Made by a program: the position numbers and the translations under genes | Notes under the pieces: model-generated | Databases searched by the model: none | What the model saw: only the letters and a program-made list of their open reading frames with translations | What the model was told of the DNA's origin: nothing | Origin: Terriglobales bacterium | Lineage (GTDB): Bacteria; Acidobacteriota; Terriglobia; Terriglobales; Acidobacteriaceae | DNA: 42,242 nucleotides | Reading direction: 5' to 3' | Assembly (NCBI GenBank): GCA_035517535.1 | Contig: DATIYR010000125.1 | Span: 1 to 42,242, forward strand | Shown: positions 11,295 to 37,193 of the stretch, piece after piece | Position numbering within the stretch: the first letter of the stretch is position 1 | Layout of the letters: each line of letters begins with the position of its first letter

Positions 11295-11338
11295 GTCGTC
11301 AGGCGCTCAAACCTTTCTTGCCCACCGACGCACAGGAA

Positions 11339-11354
11339 CGTGATGGTGATCACA
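11339..11354. promoter_or_regulatory. CRP-type box, 9/10 match (cGTGAtggtgaTCACA)
   Basis: Read directly. Intergenic, centred about 45 nt upstream of the ABC1-kinase ATG (11392). Confidence 0.35.
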
Positions 11355-11391
11355 GCGCAGCCTGTATACCGCGCTTATGGTTTAGATATCG

Positions 11392-14605: not shown

Positions 14606-14617
14606 AAAAAACTTGAC

Positions 14618-15334: not shown

Positions 15335-15352
15335 GAGGTCAGTCCATCTATC

Positions 15353-18300
15353 TTATGCAGCTTGTACGGCAGCGATCTCTTGTTTTGCGCTCTCCTCTTC
15401 CCTTGCGATCCCGCGTTCGATCGCCCCGATCAGATACGGCCGCAGTTTCCCCGGCGGAATGATGCAATCGAGCGCGCCCACTTGCAGAGCACGGTGTACG
15501 CTGTGCACACGGTCGAACTCCGCCGCCGTTTCGCCCAACTTCTCCGAGTGCACTTTGGCGAATAACTCATCCCATTGCGCGCGCAGGCGACCCTTTTCTG
15601 CCCCTTCAGCTTTTGCCATTGCTTCAGCCAGTGGCTGCAGACGAGGGTCCTTGCGGGCTTTCGCCTCGACCTCGCTCGCAAAAACCACGGCCGCGGCCGG
15701 CGCTCCACCGATCACAGAAGCGTACGTCCCTTCGAGCGCTGCGACTTCCAATTGCTGATTCAGGGCGCGCGAGAAAACCACGTAAGCGCCACCGTGATAT
15801 CGCGAAATGACACAGAAGACCATCGGGCCTTTAAAATTCACCACGGCGCGACCGATCTCGGCACCGTATTCGAGCTGCAGCCGCCGCATGGATTCCGGCG
15901 AGCCATCAAAACCGGACAAGTTCGCAAGGACAACCACGGGTCGGTTGTTGCTGGCCGCATTTATCGCCCGCGCAACTTTCTTCGACGATTGCGGAAACAA
16001 CGTACCCGACGTCCATTGATCCGGCCCATCGGCAGGCACGAAGCCAAAACGAGGCAGTGGGCGAGATTCGAGGCCAATGAGGCAAACCGGATATCCTCCC
16101 AGGTGCGAATCCCATACGACCGCGGTTTCTGCGGCCCTCATCCCCGCCCACCGTTCGAGCGGAACATGGTCCTGGTCCATGGTTGCGAGCATCACGTTGC
16201 GAATGTCGAACGACTTCTTGCGCCCTGGATTGGTCTCGTCTGAGAGAATCTCTCCCACACGCGTGAATCCTTCTTCGCCGCCGGCATGCGGATAATCGCG
16301 GACATCGCGTTCGCGGAGATCGGCAGTTTCCGCGCGGCGTGGGAATCGCTCGCCTGGAGCAACGTAGGTGTGCTCATAGTGCCGAAAGAGAATCTGGCAG
16401 GCTTCGTCGAGGTCCTGCGCCCAATACTGCGCCTGGCCATTGACTCCCATGATGCGGTCATAACCACCGATGCCCTGGTTGTCTTCGGCGGAAATCCCTC
16501 CGGAATAATCGAGCGCACGTTTGCCGGTCAGCACCATGGCGGCTTTCGGCGTCATCACCAGAATTCCCCGCGTATGCATGAGCATGGTAGCCTCGGCATT
16601 CCAGTAAGGCTGCGCCCCAACGTTGATCCCATTAATAATGAGATTGACTTCGCCACCGGCTTGGGTGAACTCCACCAGGCGCCGCAACGCGCGTGCGATC
16701 CAATCCATATTTTCAACGCCGCTGCTCATGGAAATCTTGGCGCCGGCTGAAATCGGGAACCATTCGAGCGGGACTTTCATTTCTTCGGCGAGGTCGAGCG
16801 CGGCAATAATCCGGCGGCACTCCGGCTCGGCCAGTGCGCCCAGATCCTTACTGGGATCGCCAAGCAGCAACACCCGCGTCATTCCTTCGGGATATCTGGT
16901 AGTGAAGTTGCGAATCACCCCCGCGATAATGTTGGCCTTGTTTTGGCCGTATGGCCGGGAGACCGGCACCAGGCGATTCTCGGCACCGAGATCGTGCTCC
17001 ATGAATTCTCCAGGCGGGAATTCCGAGCGTGCATGTTCGCGCGGCGGCGTAATCAAGTTGACGATCTCGTACGGATAAATCATTCCCCGCTGGCGCATGC
17101 GCACGACTTTTTGTTTGTATTCATCCAGCGGTTTCATGGGTTCGAGTTGCTGGTCGGCAGGCCGGAAGCTGGTTACCATTCCCCGGCCGGCTGGACTCGA
17201 GATGCGGACCACCATGTCGCGTACTTCACCGGTGGCTGGATTAGGAATACGGGTGCGTACGACCACCTGCTCAAGCCCCAATCCTTGGGTGGCGGGAGTC
17301 AGCCGGCGCACAATGTCGCGCAATTCTTCCCGCTGCAAATTCAGTGGGGGCCAGATATATAAAAGGATGCGGTTCCACCACAGACGTCGATTAACCGGCC
17401 GGCTCGACTGAAAAAGACGGATGCTTGCCAGGGCTTCGGTAAACATACGTTCAAGGTGCGGCAGCTTCAGGATCCGGCCCGATTCATCGCGCACCGGTGT
17501 GACGTCCCGCACCTCGGCGCATGCAATCAAACGCTCGTCCTTCGGATTTTCTCGCGCGACACAGTGAAGCAGGTAAACATCCTCGACCGAGGGCAGCCGC
17601 TCGATATTGAAATTACTGAGCCGCCAGAGGTGTAGCCGCTTGGCCATCATCGGGTGGATGCCGCGAACCAGTTTTTCTTCCTCATAGCCGTTCGTTCCAG
17701 CCGGCCGGAAAGTGAAGTGCTGCATTCCGCCTGCGCCCTGGGCGTGGACTGAACTTGCAACCTCTACCACGATCCGGCGAATCAGGCGCGGGAACTTGAT
17801 TCCAGCAAGCACAGTCCGAAGTTCTTGTTGTGTGCAGTCCGCTTCAGCCGGCTGCCCTTCATGCCATGAGTAAAAGTCGAGAACGATGTCGTGATCTTCA
17901 GGAACATCCTTCAGCAACCCACAGATTCCAGTCGCCGCGTTTGCTAACTGCGCGTATTCGGTATGCGTGGTGAACATATGAATGCGTCGGCCTTCGTGTT
18001 CGTATTCTGCCGCGGCGTAGCAACGTCCATCGATATCCAACGAGCGGAAGTTCTCAAGCGCACGAATACGGTAATAGCGCCACATAATGGCTTCGAGCAT
18101 CAGCTTGCGCATGCCCATGCTCGACGAGGCAAACCGGCTCGAGAGCAGTCCGACCAGGGGTTGCGGGCACTCCACCAGTTCGCGCACCTGCTCGTGCCGG
18201 TCTGGCGCTTCCGGGTTCGCTGCGATGCGAGCGAGCTGCTGTTTCACTTTGTCGTAAACCTCTTTGCGGGCCCGCTCGAAAAGCGGCTGATCGAAGTAGC

Positions 18301-20953
18301 GATAACGCAGCTCCGAGGCCAAATCGCTTATGGCAGGAAATGCGCTGTTGCCCGCCGCAATGATGCGATCGAGAAGCGTTCTTTGCTCTTCGCCGGGTTC
18401 GAAGCCGCGGCGCTCGGCATCCTGCAATCGCCGTCTGAGCAGGCCGAGGACTGGCGCAACCTGCTGTTCTGTACGCTGATGAGACTTGTAGATCCACAAG
18501 AGAGCTCGCTCAAGCTGAGTAGAGCGACGCAAACTGTACACTCCGTAATGCGCCAGCGCCCGCCGCAGCGCCTCCACAAAATATGCAGGCAGCCCTTCGC
18601 CTTCGGTATCAAGACTGCGCAGAAAGGCGAAAAGAAAGGCTTCAGAGGTGGGCGCTTCGCCGCTCGAACGGTGGTCCACTTCAGGTTCGCGCTTAAACAA
18701 GGAGCAAACGTCTACGAAAATATTCAGGATTTCATCCTCGGCATCGCGCAGTTCCTCGCCCTCGATTGGCCGGGTCTTGGTCCACTCTGCAAGCTGATTC
18801 GCCGTTTGCCTGGGATCGACATCAAATCCCAGCATCAGCTGCCGCAGCTCATCCAACGCTTGACGATAATCAGCGGGAATCAAGTCTGGAACTTCTTCCC
18901 CGCAATACGACGCGCCAAAGTGAATGCGTTCTTCCTGGCCTTCAGGCTGTGCTGAGAGTTCGGCATCAATTTGAAACAGCGGCGCGCCAGTATCAACCTG
19001 CACATTGGGGATGATCATCACTTGGCGCACTCTTCCTGAGAATGGCGCCACCACCTGCATCTCCATCTTCATGGCTTCGAGCATCGCAAGCCGGCCGCCG
19101 ACAGAAACCGTATCGCCTGCCTTGACTGCGATGGAAGCCACCACGGCGGGAGCAGGTGCATGCACAATGCCACCGTCATCGCGCTCGATCTGATGCGAGA
19201 CGCCGTCCACCTCAATCCGATAACTCAATCCGTGGATGACCGAAACCACGTGGAAACGGCGGCCAAATGCTGTAAGCCAATGCTCATATTGGCCGAGGCG
19301 ATCGACTTCGACTTCGATGCGAGAGCGATCGACCTCTATGCGGTAATGCTGCGGGCCCACGCGAAAGACGTTGAGTGAATAAGAATGTCCGCCATGACGC
19401 AGTTCGGCAGTGCGTCCTATTTCGCTCCGTATCTGCGGCCTTCCACGCACCGCCGATGCATAGAACTGCGACTGCTCGATCGCGAGTTGAGCTTCGTAAG
19501 ATTCGATTGCGGCATGCAGGAGCGCGATATCTGCGTATTGCCGCGAAACATGATTTCCACTCGCCGCCAGCTGGTCCAGCCAGCCAATGTTCACATCCGC
19601 GCTTTTCACTTCCTTGCGGCTCAAGAGCTCCAACAGAAATGCTTTATTGCTGGCCCCACCTTTGATCACGACCACGCTCTCGCGCAGCACACGTTGCAGA
19701 CGGGCCAGGGCTTCGTTCCGGCTCTGACCATGGGCGATGATCTTGGCGATCATGGAATCGAAATCGGCGGGTACACAGTCGCCCTCGCCCACTCCCGTGT
19801 CCACCCGGATTCCGGCTCCGGTAGCAATCCGGAACCGCTCAACCACACCGGGCGCGGGCGCAAAACCATTTTCCGGATCTTCCGCGTTGAGGCGAACTTC
19901 AATCGCATGACCTTTTGTGGGCGGCGGGTCTCCGACCAGGGTTCCGCCACGTGCCACATGAATTTGCAGTTTGACGAGATCGAGCCCAGTTGTGCATTCT
20001 GTGACCGGATGTTCAACCTGCAAACGAGTATTCATTTCCATGAATGAGAAACTTTGTGATTCCGGCTGATACAGGAACTCGACTGTGCCCGCGTTGTAAT
20101 AATGTGCTGCCTTCGAAAGGCGCACCGCAGCCGCGTGCAGCTCCTCGTCCTGCTCCGGGGTGAGCATTGGGGATGGCGCTTCTTCAAGAATTTTCTGGTG
20201 CCGTCGCTGGATGGTGCAGTCGCGTACGCCCGCGGCCCACGTATTTCCAAAATGATCGGCGATCACCTGCACCTCAACGTGGCGCGCACCCTCGATCAGC
20301 CGTTCCATGAAAACCGTTGGATCGCCAAACGCTTTAAAAGCTTCGTTGCGGGCGCATTCGAATGCGTGAGGAAGTTCGTGCGCGAAATGAACCTGGCGGA
20401 TACCGTGCCCGCCGCCGCCAGCTGTCGCTTTAATAAGGAGCGGAAAACCCAGGCGTTCTCCTTGACGCAAGGCGTCATCCACGGTTTCAACCGGGCCGCC
20501 GCTCCAGGGTGCAACCGGTAGTTGCGCCTGTTCGGCCAGGAGCTTCGAGGCGATTTTGTCACCAACGTGACGCATGGTGTCGCCGTCAGGCCCAATGAAC
20601 ACAATGCCCATCTCGCGGCACAAATCGGCAAATGCAGCATGCTCGGCAACAAATCCCCATCCCACCCACACTGCCTCAGCGCGCGTCGCGGCGAGCGCTC
20701 TCTCCAGCCTCCCGTAATCAACGTACGCGCTTTTCGGCTGGCGGGTGCTCGCATCCAGAACCTGCGCTGGGCCGAGGCTAACGGCTTCATCAGCCTCGCG
20801 TACGTACATTGCGTAACGGTCGGGATCGGTGAACAGCGCGATGCTGTGCAAAGACGCACCGCGCTCCTGATTGAACTCACGCGCTGCATGGATGAATCGC
20901 ATGGCAGGTTCGCCACGATTCACGATTGCGACGCGTTTGAATTCGTAATTCAT
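15353..20953 (-). CDS. Single-chain multidomain acetyl/acyl-CoA carboxylase (BC - BCCP - central region - eukaryote-type carboxyltransferase)
   Basis: 1866 aa.
- N-terminal biotin carboxylase: MNYEFKRVAIVNRGEPAMRFIHAARE.., ATP-grasp.
- Biotinyl motif LEAMKMEM: Lys629, minus-strand AAG at 19067-19069.
- C-terminal CT: ..LANLSGFDGSPESMRRLQLEYGAEIGRAVVNFKGPMVFCVISRYHGGAYVVF.. resembles the homomeric eukaryotic ACC CT. Confidence 0.9.
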   Translation of the reverse strand: MNYEFKRVAIVNRGEPAMRFIHAAREFNQERGASLHSIALFTDPDRYAMYVREADEAVSLGPAQVLDASTRQPKSAYVDYGRLERALAATRAEAVWVGWGFVAEHAAFADLCREMGIVFIGPDGDTMRHVGDKIASKLLAEQAQLPVAPWSGGPVETVDDALRQGERLGFPLLIKATAGGGGHGIRQVHFAHELPHAFECARNEAFKAFGDPTVFMERLIEGARHVEVQVIADHFGNTWAAGVRDCTIQRRHQKILEEAPSPMLTPEQDEELHAAAVRLSKAAHYYNAGTVEFLYQPESQSFSFMEMNTRLQVEHPVTECTTGLDLVKLQIHVARGGTLVGDPPPTKGHAIEVRLNAEDPENGFAPAPGVVERFRIATGAGIRVDTGVGEGDCVPADFDSMIAKIIAHGQSRNEALARLQRVLRESVVVIKGGASNKAFLLELLSRKEVKSADVNIGWLDQLAASGNHVSRQYADIALLHAAIESYEAQLAIEQSQFYASAVRGRPQIRSEIGRTAELRHGGHSYSLNVFRVGPQHYRIEVDRSRIEVEVDRLGQYEHWLTAFGRRFHVVSVIHGLSYRIEVDGVSHQIERDDGGIVHAPAPAVVASIAVKAGDTVSVGGRLAMLEAMKMEMQVVAPFSGRVRQVMIIPNVQVDTGAPLFQIDAELSAQPEGQEERIHFGASYCGEEVPDLIPADYRQALDELRQLMLGFDVDPRQTANQLAEWTKTRPIEGEELRDAEDEILNIFVDVCSLFKREPEVDHRSSGEAPTSEAFLFAFLRSLDTEGEGLPAYFVEALRRALAHYGVYSLRRSTQLERALLWIYKSHQRTEQQVAPVLGLLRRRLQDAERRGFEPGEEQRTLLDRIIAAGNSAFPAISDLASELRYRYFDQPLFERARKEVYDKVKQQLARIAANPEAPDRHEQVRELVECPQPLVGLLSSRFASSSMGMRKLMLEAIMWRYYRIRALENFRSLDIDGRCYAAAEYEHEGRRIHMFTTHTEYAQLANAATGICGLLKDVPEDHDIVLDFYSWHEGQPAEADCTQQELRTVLAGIKFPRLIRRIVVEVASSVHAQGAGGMQHFTFRPAGTNGYEEEKLVRGIHPMMAKRLHLWRLSNFNIERLPSVEDVYLLHCVARENPKDERLIACAEVRDVTPVRDESGRILKLPHLERMFTEALASIRLFQSSRPVNRRLWWNRILLYIWPPLNLQREELRDIVRRLTPATQGLGLEQVVVRTRIPNPATGEVRDMVVRISSPAGRGMVTSFRPADQQLEPMKPLDEYKQKVVRMRQRGMIYPYEIVNLITPPREHARSEFPPGEFMEHDLGAENRLVPVSRPYGQNKANIIAGVIRNFTTRYPEGMTRVLLLGDPSKDLGALAEPECRRIIAALDLAEEMKVPLEWFPISAGAKISMSSGVENMDWIARALRRLVEFTQAGGEVNLIINGINVGAQPYWNAEATMLMHTRGILVMTPKAAMVLTGKRALDYSGGISAEDNQGIGGYDRIMGVNGQAQYWAQDLDEACQILFRHYEHTYVAPGERFPRRAETADLRERDVRDYPHAGGEEGFTRVGEILSDETNPGRKKSFDIRNVMLATMDQDHVPLERWAGMRAAETAVVWDSHLGGYPVCLIGLESRPLPRFGFVPADGPDQWTSGTLFPQSSKKVARAINAASNNRPVVVLANLSGFDGSPESMRRLQLEYGAEIGRAVVNFKGPMVFCVISRYHGGAYVVFSRALNQQLEVAALEGTYASVIGGAPAAAVVFASEVEAKARKDPRLQPLAEAMAKAEGAEKGRLRAQWDELFAKVHSEKLGETAAEFDRVHSVHRALQVGALDCIIPPGKLRPYLIGAIERGIAREEESAKQEIAAVQAA

Positions 20954-20985
20954 AAGGCCTCGATCGACGAGGATCTCGGCACACC

Positions 20986-23900
20986 TTACGCCGCTACAGC
21001 TTCAAGAGCCATCGCGCCTTGAAGTTTCGCAAGACGCTCCTTATCAACGGCGTTGGGAACGGCCACTGTGCGATAACCTTTTAGCCGCAGATAGCAGTTT
21101 CCTTTCCCATCTACGATTTCAGCATCGAATTTGTCTTCGTCAGGAACTCGCGTTACTACTGCATATAACGGATCGGCAACGTTTTCACGCGCGCCGAATA
21201 GCGAAACTGAATCGATATGAAGCGGCAAACCCATCCAGCCCTGCACTCCCATTTCCCAAACGCCGGCAGTCTGGAAGCACAACTCAATCAGACGCGGCGC
21301 GGCTACGGTTTGCGACTCCGGCGGCACATGATTGTTGGGCAGATTGTTCGCCATCAATCCGATTATGCGATCACCGTCCCACCAGGCTTTTTCGATCACC
21401 TGATACGCAGGGCCGTGAAAGTAAAGTCCGTAAATTTCTTTCCGGTTAACGACATTTCCGGAAGGCGTCCCGATTTTTGGCACGCTCGACGGCTTCTGCG
21501 TTTCTCTGGTCAGCCGCACGCGCGCTGTGAAATGAGTGGTGACTTGCGGCTCAATCTGATTCGGCAGTGAACGGCACCCGATCAACTTGCAATCGGCAAC
21601 CAGTCCGTCGCCATCGGGATGAATCACGTTCTCAACTGTTACGGTTCGCGGTTCATTGCGATAAAACTTGAACGGCGTGTGATAGTCGACCTGCTCGACC
21701 GATTCAACATGCCATCCGGGTAGTGGCACGAGAGCGGCTTCTGTAAATGCCTCTACGCCCATCACACCCGGAAGCACGGGCGTGCCGTCGATCTGGTGAT
21801 CGTAGAGGAACGGCTGAACTTTGGGATCGAGAGTCGTCTTAATCGTCAATGGAGTCAAGACGCCTGAGCTCGCTATTTTGCCGAGCATAGGCTTCCGAGT
21901 CGCCGAAGCTTTTTCGCCGTTTGTTGCGGCGAGATCGATTCCGCCGCTGTCGTCCCATTCCTTCGCAAGAACGCCGAGCCTGTTTGCGATCACGACTTCG
22001 CCACGCGTGCCGCCTTCCGTCACTTCGCGCCGAACAATCGGGACTCCCGCTTCAGGCGGCAACATGTCGATGCCCGCCGCTTCCATGATCTTGGGGATCG
22101 ATCCGCGCGAGGCCATGCCGACTCCGCCCCATGCAGTCCAGTCAATAGCAATGCCGCGCGTCTGGAGACGGGTCGTGCGGAAGCTCGATGTAATCTTGCA
22201 AAGCAGATCATTGGCTGCGCTGTAATCGGTTTGGCCGGAATTGCCTAAGCGCCCGGCAATGGAACTAAACACGACGGTCGCTGCGAGTGGCATGTTGCCG
22301 ATCGCACGCAGCAGGTTGAAAAAGCCGTCGCTCTTCACGTCAAAAACGAAATCGAACTCAGCCGGCTGTTTTTCGGAAAGAGGCCGGCTACGCTCGATTC
22401 CCGCCGCGTGCAGCAAGAAGTCAACTCGTCCGCTGTGATCGCGCACCTCGCGAATGATCCTTTCAACCGCCTCAGCATTCGTGAGATCAACGCTGAAGTA
22501 TTTCGCGGTTCCGCCTGCCGCGCGCACCGCATCGATTGCAGTTTGCGCGGCGTGCGCCCGTTCCAGCGCCGCGAGTTCCTTCTCCATCATCACCGGAGTG
22601 GCACGCTCTCCGCGCGCCTGTATACGCGAGAAGAGTTCGCGCTTCAGCGCTTCCCTATCGCTGACGAATAGCTTAAGGTCAGGATTGTTTGGATCGGGTT
22701 CAGGCACAACGTCGAGAAGATAGAACGTGCCTCCAGAAGCCGCCGCCAGATCGGCCGTAATGGCGGAAACAATGCTTCCGGCCGCACCCGTGATTAACAA
22801 AACCGTGTTTTCATCGAGTGCGATGCCTGGCTGGCCATCGGCCGCAGGTTGCTCTTCGAGTCCGATCGTCCAGCGCAGCTTATTTTTGTAGCCTATTTCG
22901 ATCGCGCCGGGATCACACAAAGTTTCTTCAATCAGCAGCGCAGCGATTTCTTCCGGCTTGCACTCAATTTCAAAATCAACCGCCTTTACGAATGCATCTG
23001 GACGTTCCCGCTTATATGCCTTTGTGAACCCAACAACGCCTCCGCCGAGTGGGGCCGCTGCTCCGGCTGCATCGTAGCCGTGCTGGCCGCCGAGGCGCGT
23101 GGCTGAAACCAGGAACGTGCCTGGCTTGGCAATGTGCTCATAGAGCTTTCGCATAGTCGCGTACAGTAACTTCACTCGCATACGCACGGCCTCGTGCCAG
23201 GCGTTCAGATCCATCGTGGTGAGTTGGCCTTCGCTATCGAGCGCGGGCAACCAGTAGACTCCGTCTATTCGGCCGGCCATAGCCCAGTTCTCAATTTGAG
23301 TGACGATCGAGTCGGCAGTCGGCGCACTTTCGATCAACAAAACCTCGACTCCTTTTTCCCGCAGAGCTTGCGCCAGTTTCTGAGCAACGCCGGCTTTGTC
23401 GGGCATGACAATCACGCGCTTGCCGTGTTCGAGCTTCACGCCGCTTGGCTTGCAAATGTCGAGAGGTGGACGCAACATCGGTATCGGTACGCGCCGTGGC
23501 ACCTTGTTTGCAGCATCGAAATTCGCGGGCTCCGGGCGCGGTGTCTTTTTCCCTTCGACAGGTGCCGGCGCAGGCTTCCTATCCGCTTCTTCTTTCGCTG
23601 GAGCCGACGCCGATTGCCCTCCCGCCCTGTCCTGGGCGAACTTGATCACGTGCGCCAGCGTGGAAAAATCGCGCAGCTTCAGATTTTCATCGCGAGGAAT
23701 GTTGTACGACGCGCGCACCGCGGCAAACATCTCGGCTTGCTTCACGGTGTCGATTCCGAGATCAGCTTCAAGGTCGAGATCGAGATCCAACATCTCTTTC
23801 GGATAGCCGGTTTTTTCCGCGACAATCTCCAGCACTCTTTCCTTAATTGCCTCAATCGTGGGAGCAGTGCTGACGGGAGCATGTTGGGGTTTCGCCCTTT

Positions 23901-26900
23901 CTTGCACGCTTTCGGAAGTTATCTCACTCTTAGCAGCTGCCGGAGCAGCGGCAAGATCCGACCGCTTCTCATACACAAACCGAATTACGTGGCCCAGCGT
24001 CGGGTAATCGCGAAGCTTGCGGTTCTCGTCGCGGGGAATGTTATAGATCTCGCGGATCGCCGCAAACATCTCCGCTTGCTTCACCGTGTCGACGCCCAGA
24101 TCAGCTTCGAGATCAAGATCGAGGTCGAGCATCTCCTTCGGGTAGCCGGTCTTCTCGACCACCAGGTCGAGAATGCGTTCCTTCACGGCATCGCCGTTAG
24201 CAGGTGTAGTGGCGGTCGATTTGGCAGCAGCCGCGATCTCAGGTTTGGATTCCGATGTCTTGCTGACAGAGGGGGGCTCTTTCGGCTCAACTTTTATTGA
24301 ACTTGGTGGTGAGACGGCATTAGCAGAATCTGCCAAATCGGGCCGCTTCTCGTACACAAAGCGGATCACATGTCCTAACGTCGGGTAATCACGAAGCTTG
24401 CGGTTTTCATCGCGTGGAATGTTGTAGGTCTCGCGAATCGAGGCGAAAATTTCCGCCTGCTTCACGGTATCGACGCCCAGGTCGGCCTCAAGATCGAGAT
24501 CCAGATCGAGCATCTCCTTCGGATAACCGGTCTTCTCAACTACGAGCGCGAGAATGCGGTCCTTTACCGAATCTTCTGCGCTTCCTTTATTAGTAGGAGC
24601 CGCTTGGGGAAGCGGAACCGGCGGCGCCGCCGCAACCTTGACTTCAGCTTGCGGTTGCGCCTCGGCTACAGCGACGCTGGAAGCTTTCTGGATCGCCGGA
24701 GTCGCAGATACCTGCGCCACCGGTTTTACAACAGCGGTCTCGATCAAGATCGCTGGTTTCGCCTTAACCGCGGGCAAAGGCACTGCGTCGGCGTCCTTTG
24801 TCACATGAGCACCTCGCGCCGCTTCATCACGCACCCGCAGCGTGCGATGAACCACTTCCAAGTCGGCATTCTCATGCCCGGCCAATCTGCTGAGCCACTT
24901 CGCCCACGCTTCCTGGTCGGCTATTCGATAGCTATAGCCCAAAGCCTTCGGGCTGCGGCGAACTCCATCTTTCGTAACAAACCAACGCAACAACGTCATG
25001 CTGATCTGCGAACCGAACCCGGCGCCCAGCCGCAACGCGTATTCGATCGGATACGCGCCGCCCTTCGACAAGTTCAGTGTGCCCAGCTCGGGGTCAACTT
25101 CTTTGAAGTTCGCCACCGGCGGAACGATTCCTGTCTCAAGCGATTTCACGGCCAGCACATCTTCAACGCCCGCACCCATGGCATGGCCGGTAAATCCTTT
25201 GGTGTTAGCGATCACGATCTGATCGGCGGCTTTGCCAAAGACTTGTCGCAGCGCATGAATCTCTGCCGCAGCGCTGCCACCGCGCGCCGGGGTGTAGGTT
25301 TCGTGCGAAACAAAAACCGTGCGCGGCGCGATTTGATTGCGATCGATTCCGCTGCGAGCTTCTGCGGTTGCGATCAGAGTTTCCATTACCTGCCCGATGT
25401 GTTGAACATCGAGGCGAGTGCCATGAAAAGCGCTATTGGCGGTAACCGCGCTCAGCACTTCACAGATGGGCTGGATGCCGCGACCGCGCGCTGCTTCTGC
25501 GCTCTCAACCACGAGCCCAGCCGCGCCCATTCCAATAATCATTCCGTGGCGTCGACGATCGAACGGCACCGCGGCTTCTTCGACCACTTCATCGGTGGCG
25601 GCGGCGCCGCTGGCCAGAAATCCCGCGCCAAACCAGTCGATCAGGTTGTCAGTGGTGATGTCGTCCGCGGCAATCACAATCACGCGGCTGCAGCGGCCAT
25701 CGCGGATCCAGTCCTCGGCCAATGCAATCGCCTGGGTCGTGCTGGCGCATGCCGAGTTGATTTGCGTGTTCGGCCCACGCGCACCAATGAACTCCGCGAA
25801 TTGCGAGTGCCCCATGGGCAGAACACGGAAAAGATAACGGCGATCAAATACGTAAGGCTGTCTTTCCAGTATGTCGCACAGTTCTTCGATTCGCCGATCG
25901 ATTTCCTGGGCAAGGATGGAGTAGCCGTTCGTTTCTGTAACGCGTGCCCGAAGGCTCTGCAGGCCGGCCAACTGCTCGCGGCGGGCGTGATCGGCGTAGT
26001 AGCGCGACATCTCGTCCGCAAATGAATCAAGGCCCGGGAAAGCGGAGGCAAAGATTACACCGGTTTCATCTCGCAGCGAGTCGGGCAGCACCCAGCGGTC
26101 AGGCAGCTTGGTGCCTTTGCTCGTGGTCTTGTAATGCAGCACCAGAGGAATACCCGCATCGCGCAGCGCGTCGAGACCAACGGCAATGGCCAGTTGCGTG
26201 TCGCGATCGAGTGAAGCGCGCCGGTCCGCGGAAACTCCGAATTCGTTCTCCAGATCAAATGCGCCGGCGCGTCCAGCCAACTTGATCACATCGGCCACGT
26301 CAGTGATGGTTTCAAAGTTTCCGCCGCCATCATCGCTCTTGACCAGGCGTGTAATGTGCTTGTCAAGCATGGCGCGACGGAAGCGCGTAGGAATGGCGTC
26401 GATGAACTGATCGCCACGCAGCAACCGCGCGATGTTCGAGTCATCGAAGATATGCTCGCTTCCGGGCAATCCAAGCGCAGCGCCGGTGACGACCACCGGT
26501 TCATCGTTTGCGGCTGGGGTTTTGCCGTGAGTGATTTGCCACCCACGCTCGAGCACTTCTTCGAACAAATGCCCAAGTTCGACGTAACGATCGCCGTTTG
26601 AAGACGGTGTTGAAAATGACTTAACTGCACCCGACGCTGCGGTTCTTTCTTTCTTCGCAGCGATCGCTTGGGAGGGAGCGGGCCTATACATTCGAGTTGT
26701 CTTCGGAGTTTCTGCCGAAGCGGTTGTGACAGCTACTTCGTTCGTATCTGGCGTCCCGCACCCCAATCCCGCTGCATACAGGCAGCACAGCGCCTGATTG
26801 AACGAAATAATGTCTCCGACCTTCGGATGATTCGTGAACAGCCAGGTCACATCGCCGCGCGGGCCAAGCACGTCCTCGGCAAATCCCTGCAGCGCTTTCT

Positions 26901-29583
26901 TCGGTCCGACTTCCACGAATACGCGAGCGCCTGCCTCATACAGCGTGCGCAATCCGGTCACGAACTGCACCGGCGATGCCACTTGCTGGGCAAGAATATC
27001 CAGCATCTGCGCCACGACATTCGCACCCGTGGGATAGAATTTTCCATTTGTGTTGGCAACAATTGGCAGCTTGGCCGGCTGCAGGTGCAAACGCTCGAGC
27101 ACGCGCCGCAAGGGTTCGCTCGCCGGTGCTACGATCGAAGTATGGAAGGCGTGACTCACCGGCAGTGGTGAAACTTCATAGCCCGCCTTCTGGAAGATCT
27201 CCATCGCCTGCTCGACGGCCTTGCTGGCGCCGCCAATTACTGATTGGTGTTCGCTGTTGATGTTGGCGATCACTACATAGCCATCGATCGCCTTGAGCAG
27301 ACGTTCGATTTCTTCGAGCGGCGCGAACACCGCAGCCATGCGGCCGTTATCCGCTACCGCGAACTGCGTCATTTCACGTCCGCGGGCGCTGACCGCTTCA
27401 AGCGCGTCGGCGAATGGCAGCGCATCGGCTGCGACCAACGCGCCGTATTCTCCCAGGCTGTGACCCATCGTAAAGTCAGGCGTGATACCGTATGCCGCGA
27501 GCAGGCGGGTCAACGCAAGATCCGCGGCGAGAACTGCCGGTTGCGTGATGGCAGTCTGCCGCAGGTCGTCTTCCGCTTTTGCCACTACCTCATCGTTGCC
27601 GCGATCAACAAAGATGAAGTCCGTGAGTGGTTTGCCCAGCAGCGGCATCATCACGCGATCGGCCTCAGCGAAGACTTCAGCAACGATGGGCTCCGAGTCG
27701 CACAGCGGCTTAAGCATGTTCACGTACTGTGAGCCCTGGCCTGGATACAGGAACGCAACTTTCTGTGAAGCACCGTGACCACGAAAGATGCCTTGCGCAC
27801 GAAGAGCTTTCCAGATGGCGGGCTGATTGGCAGCAAACGCCTTAAGCGCGCTTGCCGCTTTTGCGGACAAGTCTGCGGCGTCGGCATAATCGATGGCGAG
27901 CCGTTCCGGCGCATGCACGTCGGCTTCCGCCGGCGCGGATGGAGCAGGAACAATCCCCGATTTCGCATCTTTTTCTGCGGCGCGCAGGCGGTCGATGATA
28001 TCGCCTTCAGAAGTAGCTCCGATTACCAGTGCGCCGCGTAATGGAGACTTATAAGAAGATGCGGCGGAAGTTGACGCCTGTTTTGCGGTCATACCGCCTT
28101 CCACACTTTTCGCAGCAGCCTCAGTCACAGCGAACGGCGTCTTTCCGTTCCCATTCAACCTGTGTGGGATGTATTCCTCGAGCACGGCATGAAAATTCGT
28201 TCCGCCGAATCCAAAAGCGCTCAAACCGGCACGGCGCACGCCATCCGGAGGGACCGTCCACGCCTTCAGCTCGGTGTTGACGTATAGTGGCGAATGCGCG
28301 AAATCGATGTCCGGATTCGGGTGCTCGCAGTGCACGCTCGGCGGCAGCACTTTATCGTGCAGAGCAAGTGTGGCTTTGAGGAATCCCGCTGCTCCAGCCG
28401 CGCCTTTCAAATGTCCAAAGTTCGACTTCACAGACCCGAGCCCAACCAAGTGGGCCGGCAAATGATAGGTGCTGAGCACTTCGGCCAGGCTCTGTACTTC
28501 GACCACATCGCCTACGCGTGTTGACGTTCCGTGGCCTTCAAAGTAAGTCGCCGTCGCGGGTGACAACCCTGCGTTTTGCCATCCGCGTTCAACCGCGAGC
28601 TTTTGGCCAATGGGATTGGGCGCAGTAATTCCTTTCCCTTTTCCATCACTTGAGCCACCCATGCCGCGCAGCACCGCGTAAATTTTGTCGCCGTCGCGCT
28701 CAGCATCGGCGAGCCGCTTCATCAGAAAAAGTGCGGCGCCTTCGCCCATCACGAATCCGTCAGCACCTTCCGCATAAGGACGTGTCCCCGTTGCCGAGAG
28801 GGCGCCAATCTTGCAGAACTTGACGAACGTTGACGCACCCATGTTGCGATCGATACCGCCGGTGACTACCGCATCGAAATCTTTTTCGACCAGACCCTCG
28901 ACGGCCGAACTCATCGCCGCCATGGCTGAAGCGCAGGCGGCGTCGCAGATGTAATTCGGTCCGTGAAAGTTGAAAACGTTCGCGATTCTTCCGGCAATGC
29001 AGTTCGAGAGTTCTCCCGGCATGCTGTCTTCGGTGACTTCGGGAAGATATTTGGCCATGCGCTCGTGTAATTCGCGGGTAATCTCTTTGCGCAACTCTTC
29101 CGGCAGATTCGCGAAGCTGGTGACCCCTGACAGCTCGCGAGCGTACTCAGGAAAATAAATGCGGAGCGAAGTCAGATAATGCTTTTCGCCAGCCATAGCG
29201 TTGCCGAGAATCACCGCCGTGCGGTCCGGATTCAGCGGGCGATTGGGATAGCCGAAATCTTCGAGCGCCTGGCGAGTGCAGGCAATCGCCCATTTTTGCG
29301 CACCATCCATCGCGTCAACCACACGCGGTGGGACGGGCAAATGCCACTTGATCGGGTCCCACGTGAACTCGCGCACCCAACCGCCGATTTTCGAATATGT
29401 CTTATCAGGGGCTGCGGGATCGGGATCGTAATAAAGCGCCGGGTCCCAGCGTTTGGGATCAACTTCGGTTACGCTGTATCGTCCGTTCTTGATGTTTTCC
29501 CAAAACGCAGAGACATTTGGCGCATCGGGCAGAACGGCACCAAGCCCGACGATGGCGATGGCTCGGTATGAAGTGTTTTCCAT
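20986..29583 (-). CDS. PUFA-synthase (PfaA)-like iterative type I polyketide/fatty-acid megasynthase: KS-AT-KS-ACP-ACP-ACP-KR-DH
   Basis: 2865 aa. AGGAG Shine-Dalgarno 7 nt upstream of the ATG. Domain motifs are listed in the sub-features below. No ER, TE or MT domain recognised. Confidence 0.95.
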   Translation of the reverse strand: MENTSYRAIAIVGLGAVLPDAPNVSAFWENIKNGRYSVTEVDPKRWDPALYYDPDPAAPDKTYSKIGGWVREFTWDPIKWHLPVPPRVVDAMDGAQKWAIACTRQALEDFGYPNRPLNPDRTAVILGNAMAGEKHYLTSLRIYFPEYARELSGVTSFANLPEELRKEITRELHERMAKYLPEVTEDSMPGELSNCIAGRIANVFNFHGPNYICDAACASAMAAMSSAVEGLVEKDFDAVVTGGIDRNMGASTFVKFCKIGALSATGTRPYAEGADGFVMGEGAALFLMKRLADAERDGDKIYAVLRGMGGSSDGKGKGITAPNPIGQKLAVERGWQNAGLSPATATYFEGHGTSTRVGDVVEVQSLAEVLSTYHLPAHLVGLGSVKSNFGHLKGAAGAAGFLKATLALHDKVLPPSVHCEHPNPDIDFAHSPLYVNTELKAWTVPPDGVRRAGLSAFGFGGTNFHAVLEEYIPHRLNGNGKTPFAVTEAAAKSVEGGMTAKQASTSAASSYKSPLRGALVIGATSEGDIIDRLRAAEKDAKSGIVPAPSAPAEADVHAPERLAIDYADAADLSAKAASALKAFAANQPAIWKALRAQGIFRGHGASQKVAFLYPGQGSQYVNMLKPLCDSEPIVAEVFAEADRVMMPLLGKPLTDFIFVDRGNDEVVAKAEDDLRQTAITQPAVLAADLALTRLLAAYGITPDFTMGHSLGEYGALVAADALPFADALEAVSARGREMTQFAVADNGRMAAVFAPLEEIERLLKAIDGYVVIANINSEHQSVIGGASKAVEQAMEIFQKAGYEVSPLPVSHAFHTSIVAPASEPLRRVLERLHLQPAKLPIVANTNGKFYPTGANVVAQMLDILAQQVASPVQFVTGLRTLYEAGARVFVEVGPKKALQGFAEDVLGPRGDVTWLFTNHPKVGDIISFNQALCCLYAAGLGCGTPDTNEVAVTTASAETPKTTRMYRPAPSQAIAAKKERTAASGAVKSFSTPSSNGDRYVELGHLFEEVLERGWQITHGKTPAANDEPVVVTGAALGLPGSEHIFDDSNIARLLRGDQFIDAIPTRFRRAMLDKHITRLVKSDDGGGNFETITDVADVIKLAGRAGAFDLENEFGVSADRRASLDRDTQLAIAVGLDALRDAGIPLVLHYKTTSKGTKLPDRWVLPDSLRDETGVIFASAFPGLDSFADEMSRYYADHARREQLAGLQSLRARVTETNGYSILAQEIDRRIEELCDILERQPYVFDRRYLFRVLPMGHSQFAEFIGARGPNTQINSACASTTQAIALAEDWIRDGRCSRVIVIAADDITTDNLIDWFGAGFLASGAAATDEVVEEAAVPFDRRRHGMIIGMGAAGLVVESAEAARGRGIQPICEVLSAVTANSAFHGTRLDVQHIGQVMETLIATAEARSGIDRNQIAPRTVFVSHETYTPARGGSAAAEIHALRQVFGKAADQIVIANTKGFTGHAMGAGVEDVLAVKSLETGIVPPVANFKEVDPELGTLNLSKGGAYPIEYALRLGAGFGSQISMTLLRWFVTKDGVRRSPKALGYSYRIADQEAWAKWLSRLAGHENADLEVVHRTLRVRDEAARGAHVTKDADAVPLPAVKAKPAILIETAVVKPVAQVSATPAIQKASSVAVAEAQPQAEVKVAAAPPVPLPQAAPTNKGSAEDSVKDRILALVVEKTGYPKEMLDLDLDLEADLGVDTVKQAEIFASIRETYNIPRDENRKLRDYPTLGHVIRFVYEKRPDLADSANAVSPPSSIKVEPKEPPSVSKTSESKPEIAAAAKSTATTPANGDAVKERILDLVVEKTGYPKEMLDLDLDLEADLGVDTVKQAEMFAAIREIYNIPRDENRKLRDYPTLGHVIRFVYEKRSDLAAAPAAAKSEITSESVQERAKPQHAPVSTAPTIEAIKERVLEIVAEKTGYPKEMLDLDLDLEADLGIDTVKQAEMFAAVRASYNIPRDENLKLRDFSTLAHVIKFAQDRAGGQSASAPAKEEADRKPAPAPVEGKKTPRPEPANFDAANKVPRRVPIPMLRPPLDICKPSGVKLEHGKRVIVMPDKAGVAQKLAQALREKGVEVLLIESAPTADSIVTQIENWAMAGRIDGVYWLPALDSEGQLTTMDLNAWHEAVRMRVKLLYATMRKLYEHIAKPGTFLVSATRLGGQHGYDAAGAAAPLGGGVVGFTKAYKRERPDAFVKAVDFEIECKPEEIAALLIEETLCDPGAIEIGYKNKLRWTIGLEEQPAADGQPGIALDENTVLLITGAAGSIVSAITADLAAASGGTFYLLDVVPEPDPNNPDLKLFVSDREALKRELFSRIQARGERATPVMMEKELAALERAHAAQTAIDAVRAAGGTAKYFSVDLTNAEAVERIIREVRDHSGRVDFLLHAAGIERSRPLSEKQPAEFDFVFDVKSDGFFNLLRAIGNMPLAATVVFSSIAGRLGNSGQTDYSAANDLLCKITSSFRTTRLQTRGIAIDWTAWGGVGMASRGSIPKIMEAAGIDMLPPEAGVPIVRREVTEGGTRGEVVIANRLGVLAKEWDDSGGIDLAATNGEKASATRKPMLGKIASSGVLTPLTIKTTLDPKVQPFLYDHQIDGTPVLPGVMGVEAFTEAALVPLPGWHVESVEQVDYHTPFKFYRNEPRTVTVENVIHPDGDGLVADCKLIGCRSLPNQIEPQVTTHFTARVRLTRETQKPSSVPKIGTPSGNVVNRKEIYGLYFHGPAYQVIEKAWWDGDRIIGLMANNLPNNHVPPESQTVAAPRLIELCFQTAGVWEMGVQGWMGLPLHIDSVSLFGARENVADPLYAVVTRVPDEDKFDAEIVDGKGNCYLRLKGYRTVAVPNAVDKERLAKLQGAMALEAVAA
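20989..21890 (-). other. PKS domain DH (polyketide-type double hot-dog dehydratase)
   Basis: FLYDHQIDGTPVLPGVMGVE (HxxxGxxxxP; His codon 21796-21798), later YGLYFHGPAYQ. Confidence 0.8.
22021..23420 (-). other. PKS domain KR (structural + catalytic subdomains)
   Basis: Rossmann motif LLITGAAGSIVSA (22741-22800). Catalytic Tyr in QTDYSAAN (codon 22222-22224). Confidence 0.85.
23626..24561 (-). repeat. Three tandem in-frame ACP-domain coding repeats (periods 381 and 339 nt)
   Basis: ..[DE]R[IV]L[ADE][LI]V[VA]EKTGYPKEMLDLDLDLEADLG[VI]DTVKQAE[IM]FA.. occurs three times, separated by Ala/Pro/Ser linkers. The DNA copies are roughly 80% identical by eye. Confidence 0.9.
24982..26502 (-). other. 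PKS domain KS2 (second, FabF/FabB-like ketosynthase with intact Cys-His-His)
   Basis: QINSACASTTQAIA (Cys1279, codon 25747-25749), VSHETYTPARGGSAAAE, ANTKGFTGHAMGAGVED. A long insertion lies ahead of the active-site Cys. Confidence 0.8.
26881..27765 (-). other. PKS domain AT (malonyl-CoA:ACP transacylase type)
   Basis: VAFLYPGQGSQY, GHSLGEYGA (Ser709, codon 27457-27459), VSHAFHT. Confidence 0.9.
28171..29565 (-). other. PKS domain KS1 (PfaA-type ketosynthase)
   Basis: DAACASAMAAM (Cys217, codon 28933-28935), EGHGTSTRVGD, KSNFGHLKGAAG. Ends GGTNFHAVLEEY. Confidence 0.9.
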
Positions 29584-31313: not shown

Positions 31314-31317
31314 CTCC

Positions 31318-32304
31318 TCATTTCGCAGCGACGCCGTGCAGTTCGCGAACTTTGCTGGTCATCTCGGGCAGGAACTCGAGAATGTCATCGATGATTCCCA
31401 CGTCCGCCACTTGAAAAATTGGGGCCTTGGGATTTTTGTTGATGGCGATGATGAACGGATTGCCTTTCACCCCGGCCAAATGCTGCGACGAACCGCTGAT
31501 TCCGCAGGCCATATAAACCTTCGGCTTCACTGTTTTTCCTGACGAACCCACCTGGCGCGATTTTTCCAGCCATTTGGCATCGACCACCGGACGCGAGCAG
31601 GAAACCGCCGCGCCCATAGCTTCGGCAAGCTCCTCTGCGATCGGAACATTGTCTTTTTCTTGTATGCCGCGGCCGATCGAAACCAGGACCGGGTACTTGG
31701 TGATATCAACGTCGCCAGATTCGGCCATGATCGTCTGCAGGTAACGCCGCCCTGCTGTGAGCGGGCCAACTTCTGCGGACTTGTCGATTACTGCCCCGGC
31801 CACCGCTCCGGCTTCTGTGGACTTGAACGCGCCGGGGCGAATTGTGATCACAGCGCCGGAGGAAATATCACATTTCATATGCGCGCTGACCTGGCCTCCG
31901 AATTCCTGGCGGACAACCTTGAGAAATGTGCTCTCGACGCCTTCGATCTCGACGACATCGGAAACATAGGCCGCGTTCAACTTGATGGAAAGTCCGGGAG
32001 CGAGATCGATGCCGAAGTGCGCGTGTGGAATTAGAAAAACGCTGTCCGGCGGAAGCACTTTGACCAGCGCCTTCCGGATCAGTTCCGCATTGGGATACGC
32101 AAGCACGTCGTACGAAATTTTCCAGACCTCTTTGTATGAGGCACAGACCGTTGTGCAAGCGGTTTCCAAGTCCGAACCCGCGCCGCTAACGATGGCGGTA
32201 ACTGGAGCCGCCGGATCAATCTGCCGTGCCGCGGCCAAAAGCTCAGCAGCGGAGTCGTCGACCACGCCGCCTCTATGCACGATGTAAGTGAAAATTGCAG
32301 GCAT
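31318..32304 (-). CDS. etfA: Electron transfer flavoprotein, alpha subunit
   Basis: 328 aa. FAD-binding C-terminal signature ..[43 protein letters not shown]... 1-nt overlap (TAATG) with etfB. Confidence 0.9.
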
Positions 32305-33095: not shown

Positions 33096-33097
33096 AA

Positions 33098-36868: not shown

Positions 36869-36876
36869 AAACTCTC

Positions 36877-37191: not shown

Positions 37192-37193
37192 CC

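What the first reader, a model, noticed from the sequence alone, without database searches (positions are those of the whole stretch)
23626..24561. All three tandem ACP domains have Thr at the phosphopantetheine-attachment position; the middle ACP contains no serine at all
Seen: the carrier domains align position-for-position with the PUFA-synthase ACP signature (..EADxG[IV]DS[IL]Kx[VA]E..). They read LEADLGVDTVKQAE, LEADLGVDTVKQAE and LEADLGIDTVKQAE.
- The attachment position is Thr in each: T1706, T1833 and T1946.
- The minus-strand codons are ACC at 24466-24468, ACG at 24085-24087 and ACC at 23746-23748.
- Codon usage differs between copies and the copies are diverged at the DNA level. This is therefore a conserved feature, not a sequencing error or a fresh mutation.
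- The middle domain core (ERILDLVV...RFVYEKR, 73 aa) has zero Ser residues, so no alternative Ser can be the acceptor.

Established: FAS/PKS/NRPS carrier proteins are pantetheinylated on the conserved Ser of this motif. As far as I recall, Ser-to-Thr variants of canonical ACPs are poor or non-substrates for PPTases.

Inference, three options:
- The co-encoded Sfp-type PPTase (14618-15334) has evolved to modify Thr.
- These are prosthetic-group-free scaffold domains.
- The synthase is inactive, which seems unlikely given three conserved copies and otherwise intact catalytic motifs.
Basis: partly seen in the sequence, partly recalled or inferred. Interest (0 to 1): 0.82.

Follow-up and report, generated by a model that had tools for sequence, protein, structure and literature searches.

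The report
Carrier domains with threonine attachment site
A soil acidobacterial lipid/polyketide synthase carries threonine instead of the supposedly universal serine at the cofactor-attachment site of all its carrier domains. This holds across hundreds of related genomes and always comes with a dedicated activating enzyme, which points to an undescribed threonine-linked form of the cofactor.

Summary
The 2865-aa synthase at 20986-29583(-) has three tandem ACP domains reading LEADLG[VI]DTVKQAE, with Thr at T1706, T1833 and T1946. That residue aligns with the phosphopantetheine serine of solved ACPs and starts helix II in a confident model.

It is a conserved feature, not an error or decay:
- All 329 ACP copies in 79 related Acidobacteriota loci have Thr, using all four Thr codons. 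None has Ser, which is one mutation away.
- An exhaustive search finds a large DT[VI]KQ clade beside Ser clades such as DSIKRVE of PUFA synthases.

The gene cluster is the known "Type R" secondary-lipid synthase (Shulse & Allen 2011), whose product is unknown. That paper does not mention the Thr.

A catalytically intact Sfp-type PPTase lies downstream in 70 of 70 loci that reach its position. It is fused to the synthase in four Thr-type relatives. No other carrier gene occurs in any cluster. A cultured Nonomuraea has the same cluster with a single Thr-ACP.

Best explanation (about 0.62): the dedicated PPTase pantetheinylates Thr. This is inferred, not shown. Canonical Ser-to-Thr ACP mutants are dead, and I found no report of Thr-linked phosphopantetheine. 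It is a new variant of a known kind and easy to test.

The parts
20986..29583 (-). PfaA-like type I synthase, 2865 aa: KS - AT - second KS-like domain - 3 x ACP - KR - PS-DH. It has no ER domain.
   Evidence: ORF and translation. Pfam domains. Catalytic motifs are present: DAACAS, HGTST, KSNFGH, GHSLG, HAFH, YSAAN and HQIDGTPVLP (read from the translation). NCBIfam PfaA TIGR02813 scores 923 bits, below the 1010 cutoff.
24334..24570 (-). ACP domain 1; attachment-position Thr1706, codon ACC at 24466-24468
23953..24189 (-). ACP domain 2; attachment-position Thr1833, codon ACG at 24085-24087; the 73-aa core has no Ser and no Cys
23614..23850 (-). ACP domain 3; attachment-position Thr1946, codon ACC at 23746-23748
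14618..15334 (-). Dedicated Sfp-type 4'-phosphopantetheinyl transferase, 238 aa. Motifs are ISISH, GCDLE and WSAKESVLK.
   Evidence: Pfam ACPS PF01648, 73.7 bits. Weak HetI-like match in NCBIfam. H94, D113, E115, E157 and K161 are invariant in 55 orthologues. Present in 70 of 70 related loci that reach its position.
15353..20953 (-). Single-chain multidomain acetyl-CoA carboxylase (BC-BCCP-central-CT), 1866 aa, lying between the synthase and the PPTase
   Evidence: Pfam. Conserved in 65 of 79 loci. Same arrangement as reported for Koribacter versatilis.
29634..31313 (-). Acyl-CoA-dehydrogenase-family flavoprotein, 559 aa, directly upstream of the synthase. Candidate trans-acting enoyl reductase or dehydrogenase.
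   Evidence: Pfam, NCBIfam, conserved in 69 of 79 loci. The proposed role is inference.
31318..33116 (-). Electron-transfer flavoprotein alpha (31318-32304) and beta (32304-33116)
   Evidence: Pfam. Conserved in 64 and 63 of 79 loci.
33098..35221 (-). Fe-S / CCG-domain oxidoreductase, 707 aa; likely electron partner of the ETF
   Evidence: Pfam, NCBIfam, found in 52 of 79 loci. The locus flank often ends inside it.

Best explanation
The three domains are working acyl carrier domains in which Thr has replaced Ser as the acceptor of 4'-phosphopantetheine. The Sfp-type PPTase encoded two genes downstream transfers phosphopantetheine from CoA onto the Thr hydroxyl at the N-terminus of helix II, giving O-(4'-phosphopantetheinyl)-threonine. 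The holo-ACPs then act as tandem carriers for an iterative KS-AT-KS'-KR-DH synthase, as in PUFA synthases. The adjacent acetyl-CoA carboxylase feeds this synthase with malonyl-CoA.

**Shown here**
- Domain identity and fold.
- Positional equivalence of the Thr with the Ppant Ser.
- Strict selection for Thr.
- Obligatory linkage to an intact PPTase.
- Absence of any other carrier in the clusters.

**Inferred**
- That Thr is actually modified.
- That the cluster PPTase is the enzyme that does it.
- That Thr is preferred over Ser for a functional reason. Possible reasons are insulation from the housekeeping AcpS or from Ppant hydrolases, or a more stable phosphodiester.
For: 1. The Thr sits at the Ppant-Ser position by sequence and by structure, as the first residue of helix II in a pLDDT 92 model with ACP as the top fold match.
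2. All 329 copies in 79 loci have Thr, using all four Thr codons. Ser is one nucleotide away and never appears. LDLEADLG[VI]DTVKQAE is the most invariant stretch of the domain.
3. Each copy is under purifying selection: 33 synonymous against 7 non-synonymous codon differences between ACP1 and ACP2.
4. The synthase's catalytic motifs are intact (DH motif), and the orthologues are 58-80% identical.
5. A PPTase with intact catalytic residues follows in 70 of 70 loci that reach its position. In four Thr-type megasynthases (P0177, P0192, P0199, P0247) a PPTase domain is fused to the C-terminus.
6. No other carrier gene exists in the window or in any of the 79 loci. The Thr-ACPs are therefore the only PPTase substrates in the cluster.
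7. Nonomuraea gerenzanensis has the same ACAD-PKS-ACC-PPTase cluster with a single ACP, and that ACP has Thr.
8. Ser and Thr versions are homologous and occur in the same architecture. P0260 is KS-AT-KS'-ACP5-KR-DH-PPTase with DSVK. Locus L085 has an ACP array ordered S,T,T,T followed by the orthologous PPTase.
9. The residue after the site covaries with it: T+V 390, S+I 166, T+I 9, S+V 5. This is as expected if the side chain sits in a tight pocket.
Against: - There is no biochemical evidence of any kind.
- Canonical systems reject Thr. E. coli ACP S36T cannot be pantetheinylated and does not complement (PMC3340395). Spinach ACP-I S38T is non-functional (cited in PMC9310384).
- I found no PPTase residue that tracks Thr versus Ser. 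The conserved Cys of GCDLE in the adjacent PPTases is V, I or L in the fused ones.
- No expression or product data exist for this cluster type.
- The covariation and conservation counts are not phylogenetically independent.
- The related loci were retrieved with patterns, one of which contained the Thr. The other pattern and the exhaustive HMMER search did not.
Confidence: 0.62

Rival explanations
1. The domains are cofactor-free ACP-like scaffolds. They might act as spacers, docking or oligomerisation modules. The synthase would then work on CoA thioesters, or on a Ser-type ACP encoded elsewhere in the genome.
For: - Canonical PPTases do not modify Ser-to-Thr ACPs.
- The neighbouring dehydrogenase belongs to the acyl-CoA dehydrogenase family, so CoA-bound intermediates are conceivable.
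- Only 42 kb of the genome is visible, so a distant ACP cannot be excluded.
Against: - The PPTase-recognition motif DLGxDT plus helix II is the most conserved part of the domain, not a relaxed part.
- A position with no chemical role should drift to Ala, Gly or Asn. Instead it is 329 of 329 Thr.
- A PPTase is adjacent in 70 of 70 loci or fused and would have no substrate in the cluster.
- No free-standing ACP occurs in any of the 79 loci.
- Tandem multiplication of carriers, 2 to 7 per locus, is typical of throughput-boosting functional ACPs.
Confidence: 0.14
2. The carrier is functional, but the attachment chemistry differs. Either another residue in the domain is pantetheinylated, or the Thr carries a different prosthetic group, for example a dephospho-CoA-type group as in CitD/MdcC.
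For: - Two other Thr residues are conserved in the domain: KTGYP at 96% and YPTL at 99%.
- Nothing here measures the modification.
Against: - The KTGYP and xxTL threonines are equally conserved in Ser-type relatives, for example P0156 with EKTGYPKEML...LHTLQH. They are shared structural features, not replacement sites.
- 68 of 323 domains contain no Ser at all.
- Apart from the Sfp-type PPTase, no prosthetic-group transferase such as CitX/CitG or MdcB/MdcG appears among the 18 window ORFs given a Pfam scan.
Confidence: 0.08
3. The synthase is inactive or decaying, and the Thr is a disabling substitution carried along.
For: Ser-to-Thr inactivates canonical ACPs. Some database copies appear fragmented.
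Against: - Thr is fixed across at least 79 species-level genomes in several acidobacterial families and in an actinomycete.
- Synonymous changes far exceed non-synonymous ones.
- Catalytic motifs are intact.
- The 7-gene operon is syntenic.
- The small ACP-matching ORFs in the related loci are pieces of the tandem ACP array. Most of these loci come from a single MAG assembly series, so indel errors in the repeats are the likely cause (inference).
Confidence: 0.03

Closest known systems
Type R secondary-lipid synthase cluster (Shulse & Allen 2011, PMC3098273)
   Same: [quoted passage not shown] An ACC gene lies between them, as in Koribacter versatilis. The host is acidobacterial. The PPTase has the P1b' motif hShxH, here ISISH.
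   Different: Nothing structural differs, so this window is a member. The paper does not mention the Thr attachment residue (0 occurrences of 'threonine' or 'serine'). It also does not describe the conserved ACAD-ETF-FeS genes. It calls the second KS a CLF, although that domain keeps Cys-His-His here.
PUFA synthase PfaA tandem ACPs with PfaE PPTase
   Same: Homologous tandem ACPs with the shared signature EKTGYPxEML...[ED]xDLG[IV]D-x-[IV]K. Both have KS-AT-ACPn-KR-DH order and a dedicated Sfp-type PPTase.
   Different: PfaA ACPs read DSIKRVE with Ser. This window has no PfaB, PfaC or PfaD partners. The PfaA model scores below its cutoff, 923 against 1010 bits. An extra KS-like domain lies between AT and the ACPs.
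Engineered Ser-to-Thr ACP mutants (E. coli AcpP S36T, spinach ACP-I S38T)
   Same: The same substitution at the same position of the same fold.
   Different: The mutants are not modified and are non-functional; S36T is used as an apo control. Here Thr is the naturally selected state in a whole clade that has its own PPTase.
Megasynthases with an integrated PPTase domain (enediyne PKSE KS-AT-ACP-KR-DH-PPTase, fungal FAS alpha subunit; from my own knowledge)
   Same: Thr-type relatives P0177, P0192, P0199 and P0247 carry a C-terminal PPTase domain after KR-DH. The window PPTase's only PDB sequence hit is the PPT domain of a fatty acid synthase alpha subunit (7bc4).
   Different: Those systems self-activate Ser-ACPs. 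In the window the PPTase is a separate gene.

Membership tests
Acyl/peptidyl carrier protein (PP-binding, PF00550) | Sequence match to the family profile above the curated threshold | tested here: met
   63.3 bits against a 20.8 cutoff, three stretches
Acyl/peptidyl carrier protein (PP-binding, PF00550) | Four-helix-bundle carrier fold with the attachment residue at the N-terminus of helix II | tested here: met
   AF2 pLDDT 92.2 with helices 2-14, 18-27, 35-49 and 65-75; residue 35 is the Thr. Foldseek top hits are ACPs with TM about 0.64-0.82.
Acyl/peptidyl carrier protein (PP-binding, PF00550) | Conserved Ser in the D-S-[LIV] motif as acceptor | tested here: not met
   Thr in all three domains and in 329 of 329 orthologous copies
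Acyl/peptidyl carrier protein (PP-binding, PF00550) | Covalent 4'-phosphopantetheine on the motif residue | not testable with these tools
   Needs intact-protein MS and Ppant ejection MS/MS
Type R secondary-lipid synthase cluster (Shulse & Allen 2011) | One pfaA homologue with KS-MAT-CLF-ACP(3-6)-KR | tested here: met
   KS 7-420, AT 611-900, KS-like around 1270-1470, 3 ACPs, KR 2338-2486, plus PS-DH
Type R secondary-lipid synthase cluster (Shulse & Allen 2011) | PPTase gene downstream of the pfaA homologue, with the P1b' motif hShxH | tested here: met
   PPTase at 14618-15334 with ISISH. An ACC lies in between, as in Koribacter.
PUFA synthase (pfaABCDE) | PfaA equivalog score, and PfaB (AT), PfaC (KS-CLF-DH2) and PfaD (ER) partners | tested here: not met
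   TIGR02813 scores 923 bits, below the 1010 cutoff. The neighbours are ACC, PPTase, ACAD and ETF; no PfaB, PfaC or PfaD.
Sfp-type (group II) PPTase | ACPS-superfamily domain in a protein of about 230 aa, with the Mg/CoA-binding motifs GxDxE and W[ST]xKE[SA]xxK | tested here: met
   PF01648 at 73.7 bits, 238 aa. GCDLE and WSAKESVLK are present.
Sfp-type (group II) PPTase | Transfers Ppant to the cognate carrier; here this would mean Thr | not testable with these tools
   Needs an in-vitro assay with CoA and the excised ACP

The most novel reading that the evidence does not exclude
O-(4'-phosphopantetheinyl)-threonine is a natural, widespread post-translational modification. It would be made by a lineage of Sfp-type PPTases that accept, or even prefer, Thr. 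The result would be a carrier/PPTase pair that is orthogonal to the cell's housekeeping Ser-specific AcpS system. Ser is one mutation away yet absent from several hundred copies, which suggests that Thr is required rather than merely tolerated.
Probability: 0.55. Interest if true: 0.85.

Novelty: new variant of a known kind. Interest (0 to 1): 0.76.

Why it matters
- **A textbook rule.** The Ppant-accepting serine is treated as invariant in FAS, PKS and NRPS carrier proteins, and Ser-to-Thr mutants are used as dead apo controls. A large natural clade of Thr carriers, each with its own PPTase, would add a new modification to the catalogue.
- **Annotation rules.** To my knowledge, domain-annotation rules commonly treat non-Ser ACPs as inactive. 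Such rules would need revising.
- **An engineering tool.** It could supply an orthogonal carrier/PPTase pair for pathway engineering and protein labelling.
- **Soil biology.** The cluster is widespread in soil Acidobacteriota, which are abundant in soil, and its lipid product is still unknown.
- **Testability.** The prediction can be checked in days with recombinant ACP and PPTase, and a cultured Nonomuraea carries the system.

Tried and rejected
- **Literature.** I searched for the motif (DTVKQAE, DTVKQ), for Thr-linked phosphopantetheine phrases, and for Thr-for-Ser carrier proteins. Nothing relevant turned up. The Beld et al. PPTase review could not be retrieved, so prior mention in subscription literature is not excluded. 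PMC8602292 and PMC4882568 held nothing on Thr.
- **A PPTase specificity residue.** Cys112 of GCDLE is 98% conserved in adjacent PPTases, where Sfp has Ile, and it is also present in Nonomuraea. The fused PPTases of Thr-type synthases have V, I or L there, and the one Ser-type fused PPTase is not clearly different. I rejected it as a general determinant.
- **PDB sequence search with the PPTase.** It gave only a weak hit to a fatty acid synthase alpha-subunit PPT domain, so no residue-level modelling of the active site was possible. The tools return no coordinates and cannot model complexes.
- **NJ tree of 293 ACP domains.** It was too noisy to count Ser/Thr transitions. It showed only that the Ser clades (RVE, KKAQ) are separate and that one Ser domain (P0190 ACP1) nests among the Thr domains.
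- **PUFA-synthase reading.** I rejected it because the neighbour is an ACC rather than PfaC, and the PfaA model scores below its cutoff.
- **Short stand-alone ACP hits of the first homology search.** These are probably fragments of tandem arrays, not free-standing ACPs; the small ACP-matching ORFs in the 79 loci are array pieces.


Full report
**1. The observation**

The ORF at 20986-29583 on the minus strand encodes a 2865-aa protein. A script located the motif EADLG[VI]D-x-[VI]K three times:
- T1706, codon ACC at 24466-24468.
- T1833, codon ACG at 24085-24087.
- T1946, codon ACC at 23746-23748.

The 73-aa core of the middle domain (aa 1802-1874) contains no Ser and no Cys.

The three domains are genuine carrier domains:
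- Pfam calls three PP-binding stretches, 63.3 bits against a 20.8 cutoff.
- phmmer against PDB sequences aligns the Thr onto the Ppant Ser of PigH ACPs and type II ACPs. For example, "leadlgvdTvkqae" aligns with "lendlgvdSialae".
- An AlphaFold2 model of ACP2 has mean pLDDT 92.2. The Thr is the first residue of helix II.
- The best Foldseek PDB hits listed are ACP chains or ACP-containing complexes, with TM about 0.64-0.82.

The copies have diverged mostly at synonymous sites. ACP1 and ACP2 are 81% identical in DNA and differ at 33 synonymous and 7 non-synonymous codons.

**2. What the gene and its surroundings are**

The domain order is KS - AT - second KS-like domain - ACP x3 - KR - PS-DH, with no ER domain. 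Catalytic motifs are present: DAACAS, HGTST, KSNFGH, GHSLG, HAFH, YSAAN and HQIDGTPVLP (seen in the translation).

| Position relative to the synthase | Coordinates | Gene |
|---|---|---|
| Downstream | 15353-20953 | single-chain multidomain acetyl-CoA carboxylase, 1866 aa |
| Downstream | 14618-15334 | Sfp-type PPTase |
| Downstream | 13526-14605 | alpha/beta hydrolase |
| Upstream | 29634-31313 | acyl-CoA-dehydrogenase-family protein |
| Upstream | 31318-33116 | ETF alpha and beta |
| Upstream | 33098-35221 | Fe-S/CCG oxidoreductase |
| Upstream | 35276-37222 | WS/DGAT acyltransferase |
| Upstream | 37194-39857 | AdhE-like aldehyde/alcohol dehydrogenase |

The PfaA model TIGR02813 scores 923 bits, below its 1010 cutoff.

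This is the "Type R" secondary-lipid synthase cluster of Shulse & Allen 2011. They describe it as KS-MAT-CLF-ACP(3-6)-KR followed by a PPTase, found in Koribacter versatilis, Solibacter usitatus, Elusimicrobium and Roseiflexus. In Koribacter an ACC gene lies between the two. The product is unknown. Their text never mentions threonine or serine.

Identical copies of the window's PPTase occur on soil metagenome contigs (ENA ERZ27256514 and others, JGI 3300033158). The nearest relatives are uncultured Terriglobia.

**3. Is the Thr a conserved feature?**

A scan of one genome per GTDB species found at least 532 confirmed matches. The best 79 loci are all Acidobacteriota: Acidobacteriaceae, Korobacteraceae, Bryobacteraceae, Sulfotelmatobacter, Acidoferrales and one Holophagales.

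In those loci:
- There are 329 copies of the motif, 2 to 7 per locus, and every one has Thr.
- The Thr codons are ACC 168, ACG 119, ACT 24 and ACA 18.
- Ser is a single nucleotide change away from any Thr codon, yet it never appears.
- The stretch LDLEADLG[VI]DTVKQAE is the most invariant part of the domain.
- 68 of 323 domains have no Ser at all.

One of the two retrieval patterns contained the Thr (GVDTVKQA). The other ([DE]MLDLDLD) did not.

An exhaustive HMMER search of 1.84 billion cluster representatives was independent of the Thr. It gave 5960 hits at E up to 1e-3 and 857 at E up to 1e-30. Among the top 150 proteins:
- 114 carry only Thr-type ACPs (G[IV]DT[VI]KQ[AV][EDQA]).
- 32 carry only Ser-type ACPs (DSIKRVE as in classical PUFA synthases, DSIKKAQ, DSVKVAE).
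- One mixes both.

The clade reaches beyond Acidobacteriota:
- Nonomuraea gerenzanensis, a cultured actinomycete, has ACAD - PKS (2555 aa, 62% identical over the first 1590 aa) - ACC - PPTase. Its single ACP reads LEADLGVDTVKQAE.
- P0177 is annotated from a "Thermoplasmatota archaeon" MAG.

**4. Evidence on mechanism**

*The PPTase link.* A homologue of the window PPTase is found in 70 of the 79 loci. The nine loci without one all end inside the PKS or ACC gene, before the PPTase position, so the real figure is 70 of 70. Four Thr-type megasynthases (P0177, P0192, P0199, P0247) have a PPTase domain fused at the C-terminus.

*No alternative carrier.* phmmer with E. coli AcpP and with ACP2 found no other carrier ORF in the window. 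It found no free-standing ACP in any of the 79 loci. The small hits are pieces of the tandem array, probably split by frameshifts in the assemblies.

*Ser and Thr forms are homologous and interchangeable in context.* P0260 has the same KS-AT-KS'-ACP5-KR-DH-PPTase architecture with Ser. Locus L085 carries an ACP array ordered S,T,T,T, followed by a PPTase 50% identical to the window's, although the gene there is fragmented by frameshifts.

*Covariation.* Thr pairs with Val at +1 (390 cases) and Ser pairs with Ile (166 cases). Only 9 T+I and 5 S+V exceptions occur. Both pairings occur within the same protein, P0190. These counts are not phylogenetically independent.

*Other conserved hydroxyls.* The threonines of KTGYP and YPTL are equally conserved in Ser-type relatives. 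They are therefore not substitute attachment sites.

**5. Best explanation and rivals**

The most economical reading is that the cluster PPTase pantetheinylates the Thr and the ACPs work as normal tandem carriers. I put this at about 0.62.

The main counter-evidence is that canonical systems reject Thr:
- Spinach ACP-I S38T loses function (cited in PMC9310384).

I also could not identify a PPTase residue that explains acceptance of Thr. The Cys of GCDLE is 98% conserved in adjacent PPTases, but it is V, I or L in the fused ones.

| Rival | Confidence | Main argument against |
|---|---|---|
| Cofactor-free scaffold, with CoA-bound substrates or a distant ACP | about 0.14 | motif conservation and the PPTase linkage |
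| Different attachment residue or prosthetic group | about 0.08 | other conserved threonines are shared with Ser-type relatives; no other transferase in the cluster |
| Inactive or decaying gene | about 0.03 | purifying selection and synteny |

Several hundred Thr codons never drift to Ser. This suggests that Thr is required rather than tolerated. Possible reasons are orthogonality to AcpS, resistance to Ppant hydrolases, or resistance to beta-elimination. These are speculation.

**6. Novelty**

The cluster type is known (Type R), and so is the carrier/PPTase logic. The attachment residue appears not to have been described. Ten full-text searches, including the motif itself and six phrasings of Thr-linked phosphopantetheine, found nothing. 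The library lacks most subscription journals, so prior mention cannot be excluded. I rate it a new variant of a known kind. It would surprise PKS and FAS specialists, and recombinant ACP plus PPTase, or the cultured Nonomuraea, can test it directly.

Noticed in passing
window 29634-35221 (-): An ACAD-family flavoprotein (559 aa), ETF alpha and beta, and an Fe-S/CCG oxidoreductase sit directly upstream of a synthase that has no ER domain. They are syntenic in 52 to 69 of 79 related loci. They could act as a trans enoyl reductase or as an acyl-ACP dehydrogenase/desaturase. The Type R description does not mention them.
   Followed up: partly
window about 24890-26470 (-), PKS aa about 1040-1565: The second KS-like domain, called 'CLF' by Shulse & Allen, keeps a Cys-His-His triad. 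In the window the motifs are SACAS, SHETYT and KGFTGH. Matching motifs occur across the related loci (xACA[ST] in 58 of 79; 70 SHETYT and 75 KGxTGH hits). It may be a second active condensing enzyme rather than a chain-length factor.
   Followed up: partly
window 35276-39857 (-): A WS/DGAT wax-ester synthase/acyltransferase and an AdhE-like bifunctional aldehyde/alcohol dehydrogenase lie just upstream on the same strand. This hints that the unknown product is a wax ester or fatty-alcohol-derived lipid. Conservation in relatives was not checked because the flanks were too short.
   Followed up: no
window 15353-20953 (-): A eukaryote-style single-chain acetyl-CoA carboxylase (BC-BCCP-central-CT, 1866 aa) is embedded between the synthase and its PPTase. 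It is conserved in 65 of 79 loci and in Nonomuraea.
   Followed up: partly
L084 (Nonomuraea gerenzanensis NZ_LT559118.1, locus 5564-21036): A cultured actinomycete carries the orthologous ACAD-PKS-ACC-PPTase cluster with only one ACP, and that ACP has Thr. Its PPTase has D where the others have the SH-motif His (LSLTDRAG). The 11.85-Mb record, filed in the plasmid collection as 'plasmid I', has only 10 annotated features.
   Followed up: partly
P0177 (NCBI MGA1872031.1, 3514 aa): A Thr-ACP megasynthase has an N-terminal NMO/PfaD-like ER domain and a C-terminal fused PPTase. It is annotated from a 'Thermoplasmatota archaeon' MAG. This is either an archaeal PKS-like lipid synthase or a binning error.
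   Followed up: no
window 14999-15001 (-), PPTase Cys112 in GCDLE: Cys replaces the usual Ile or Val before the catalytic Asp in 54 of 55 adjacent PPTases and in Nonomuraea. It does not do so in the fused PPTases of Thr-type synthases. Its significance is unclear.
   Followed up: partly
related loci L002, L005, L007, L016, L021, L065, L070, L071; proteins P0001-P0120: Database 'proteins' of 72-139 aa that look like stand-alone ACPs appear to be fragments of the tandem ACP array, probably split by frameshifts or repeat mis-assembly in MAGs. This is a caution for anyone counting free-standing Thr-ACPs.
   Followed up: yes
window 6537-9630: The glyoxylate-shunt genes isocitrate lyase (-, 635-aa ORF) and malate synthase (+, 516-aa ORF) are divergently arranged. 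Their mechanical ORFs overlap at 8080-8444, so the true start codons are probably further in.
   Followed up: no
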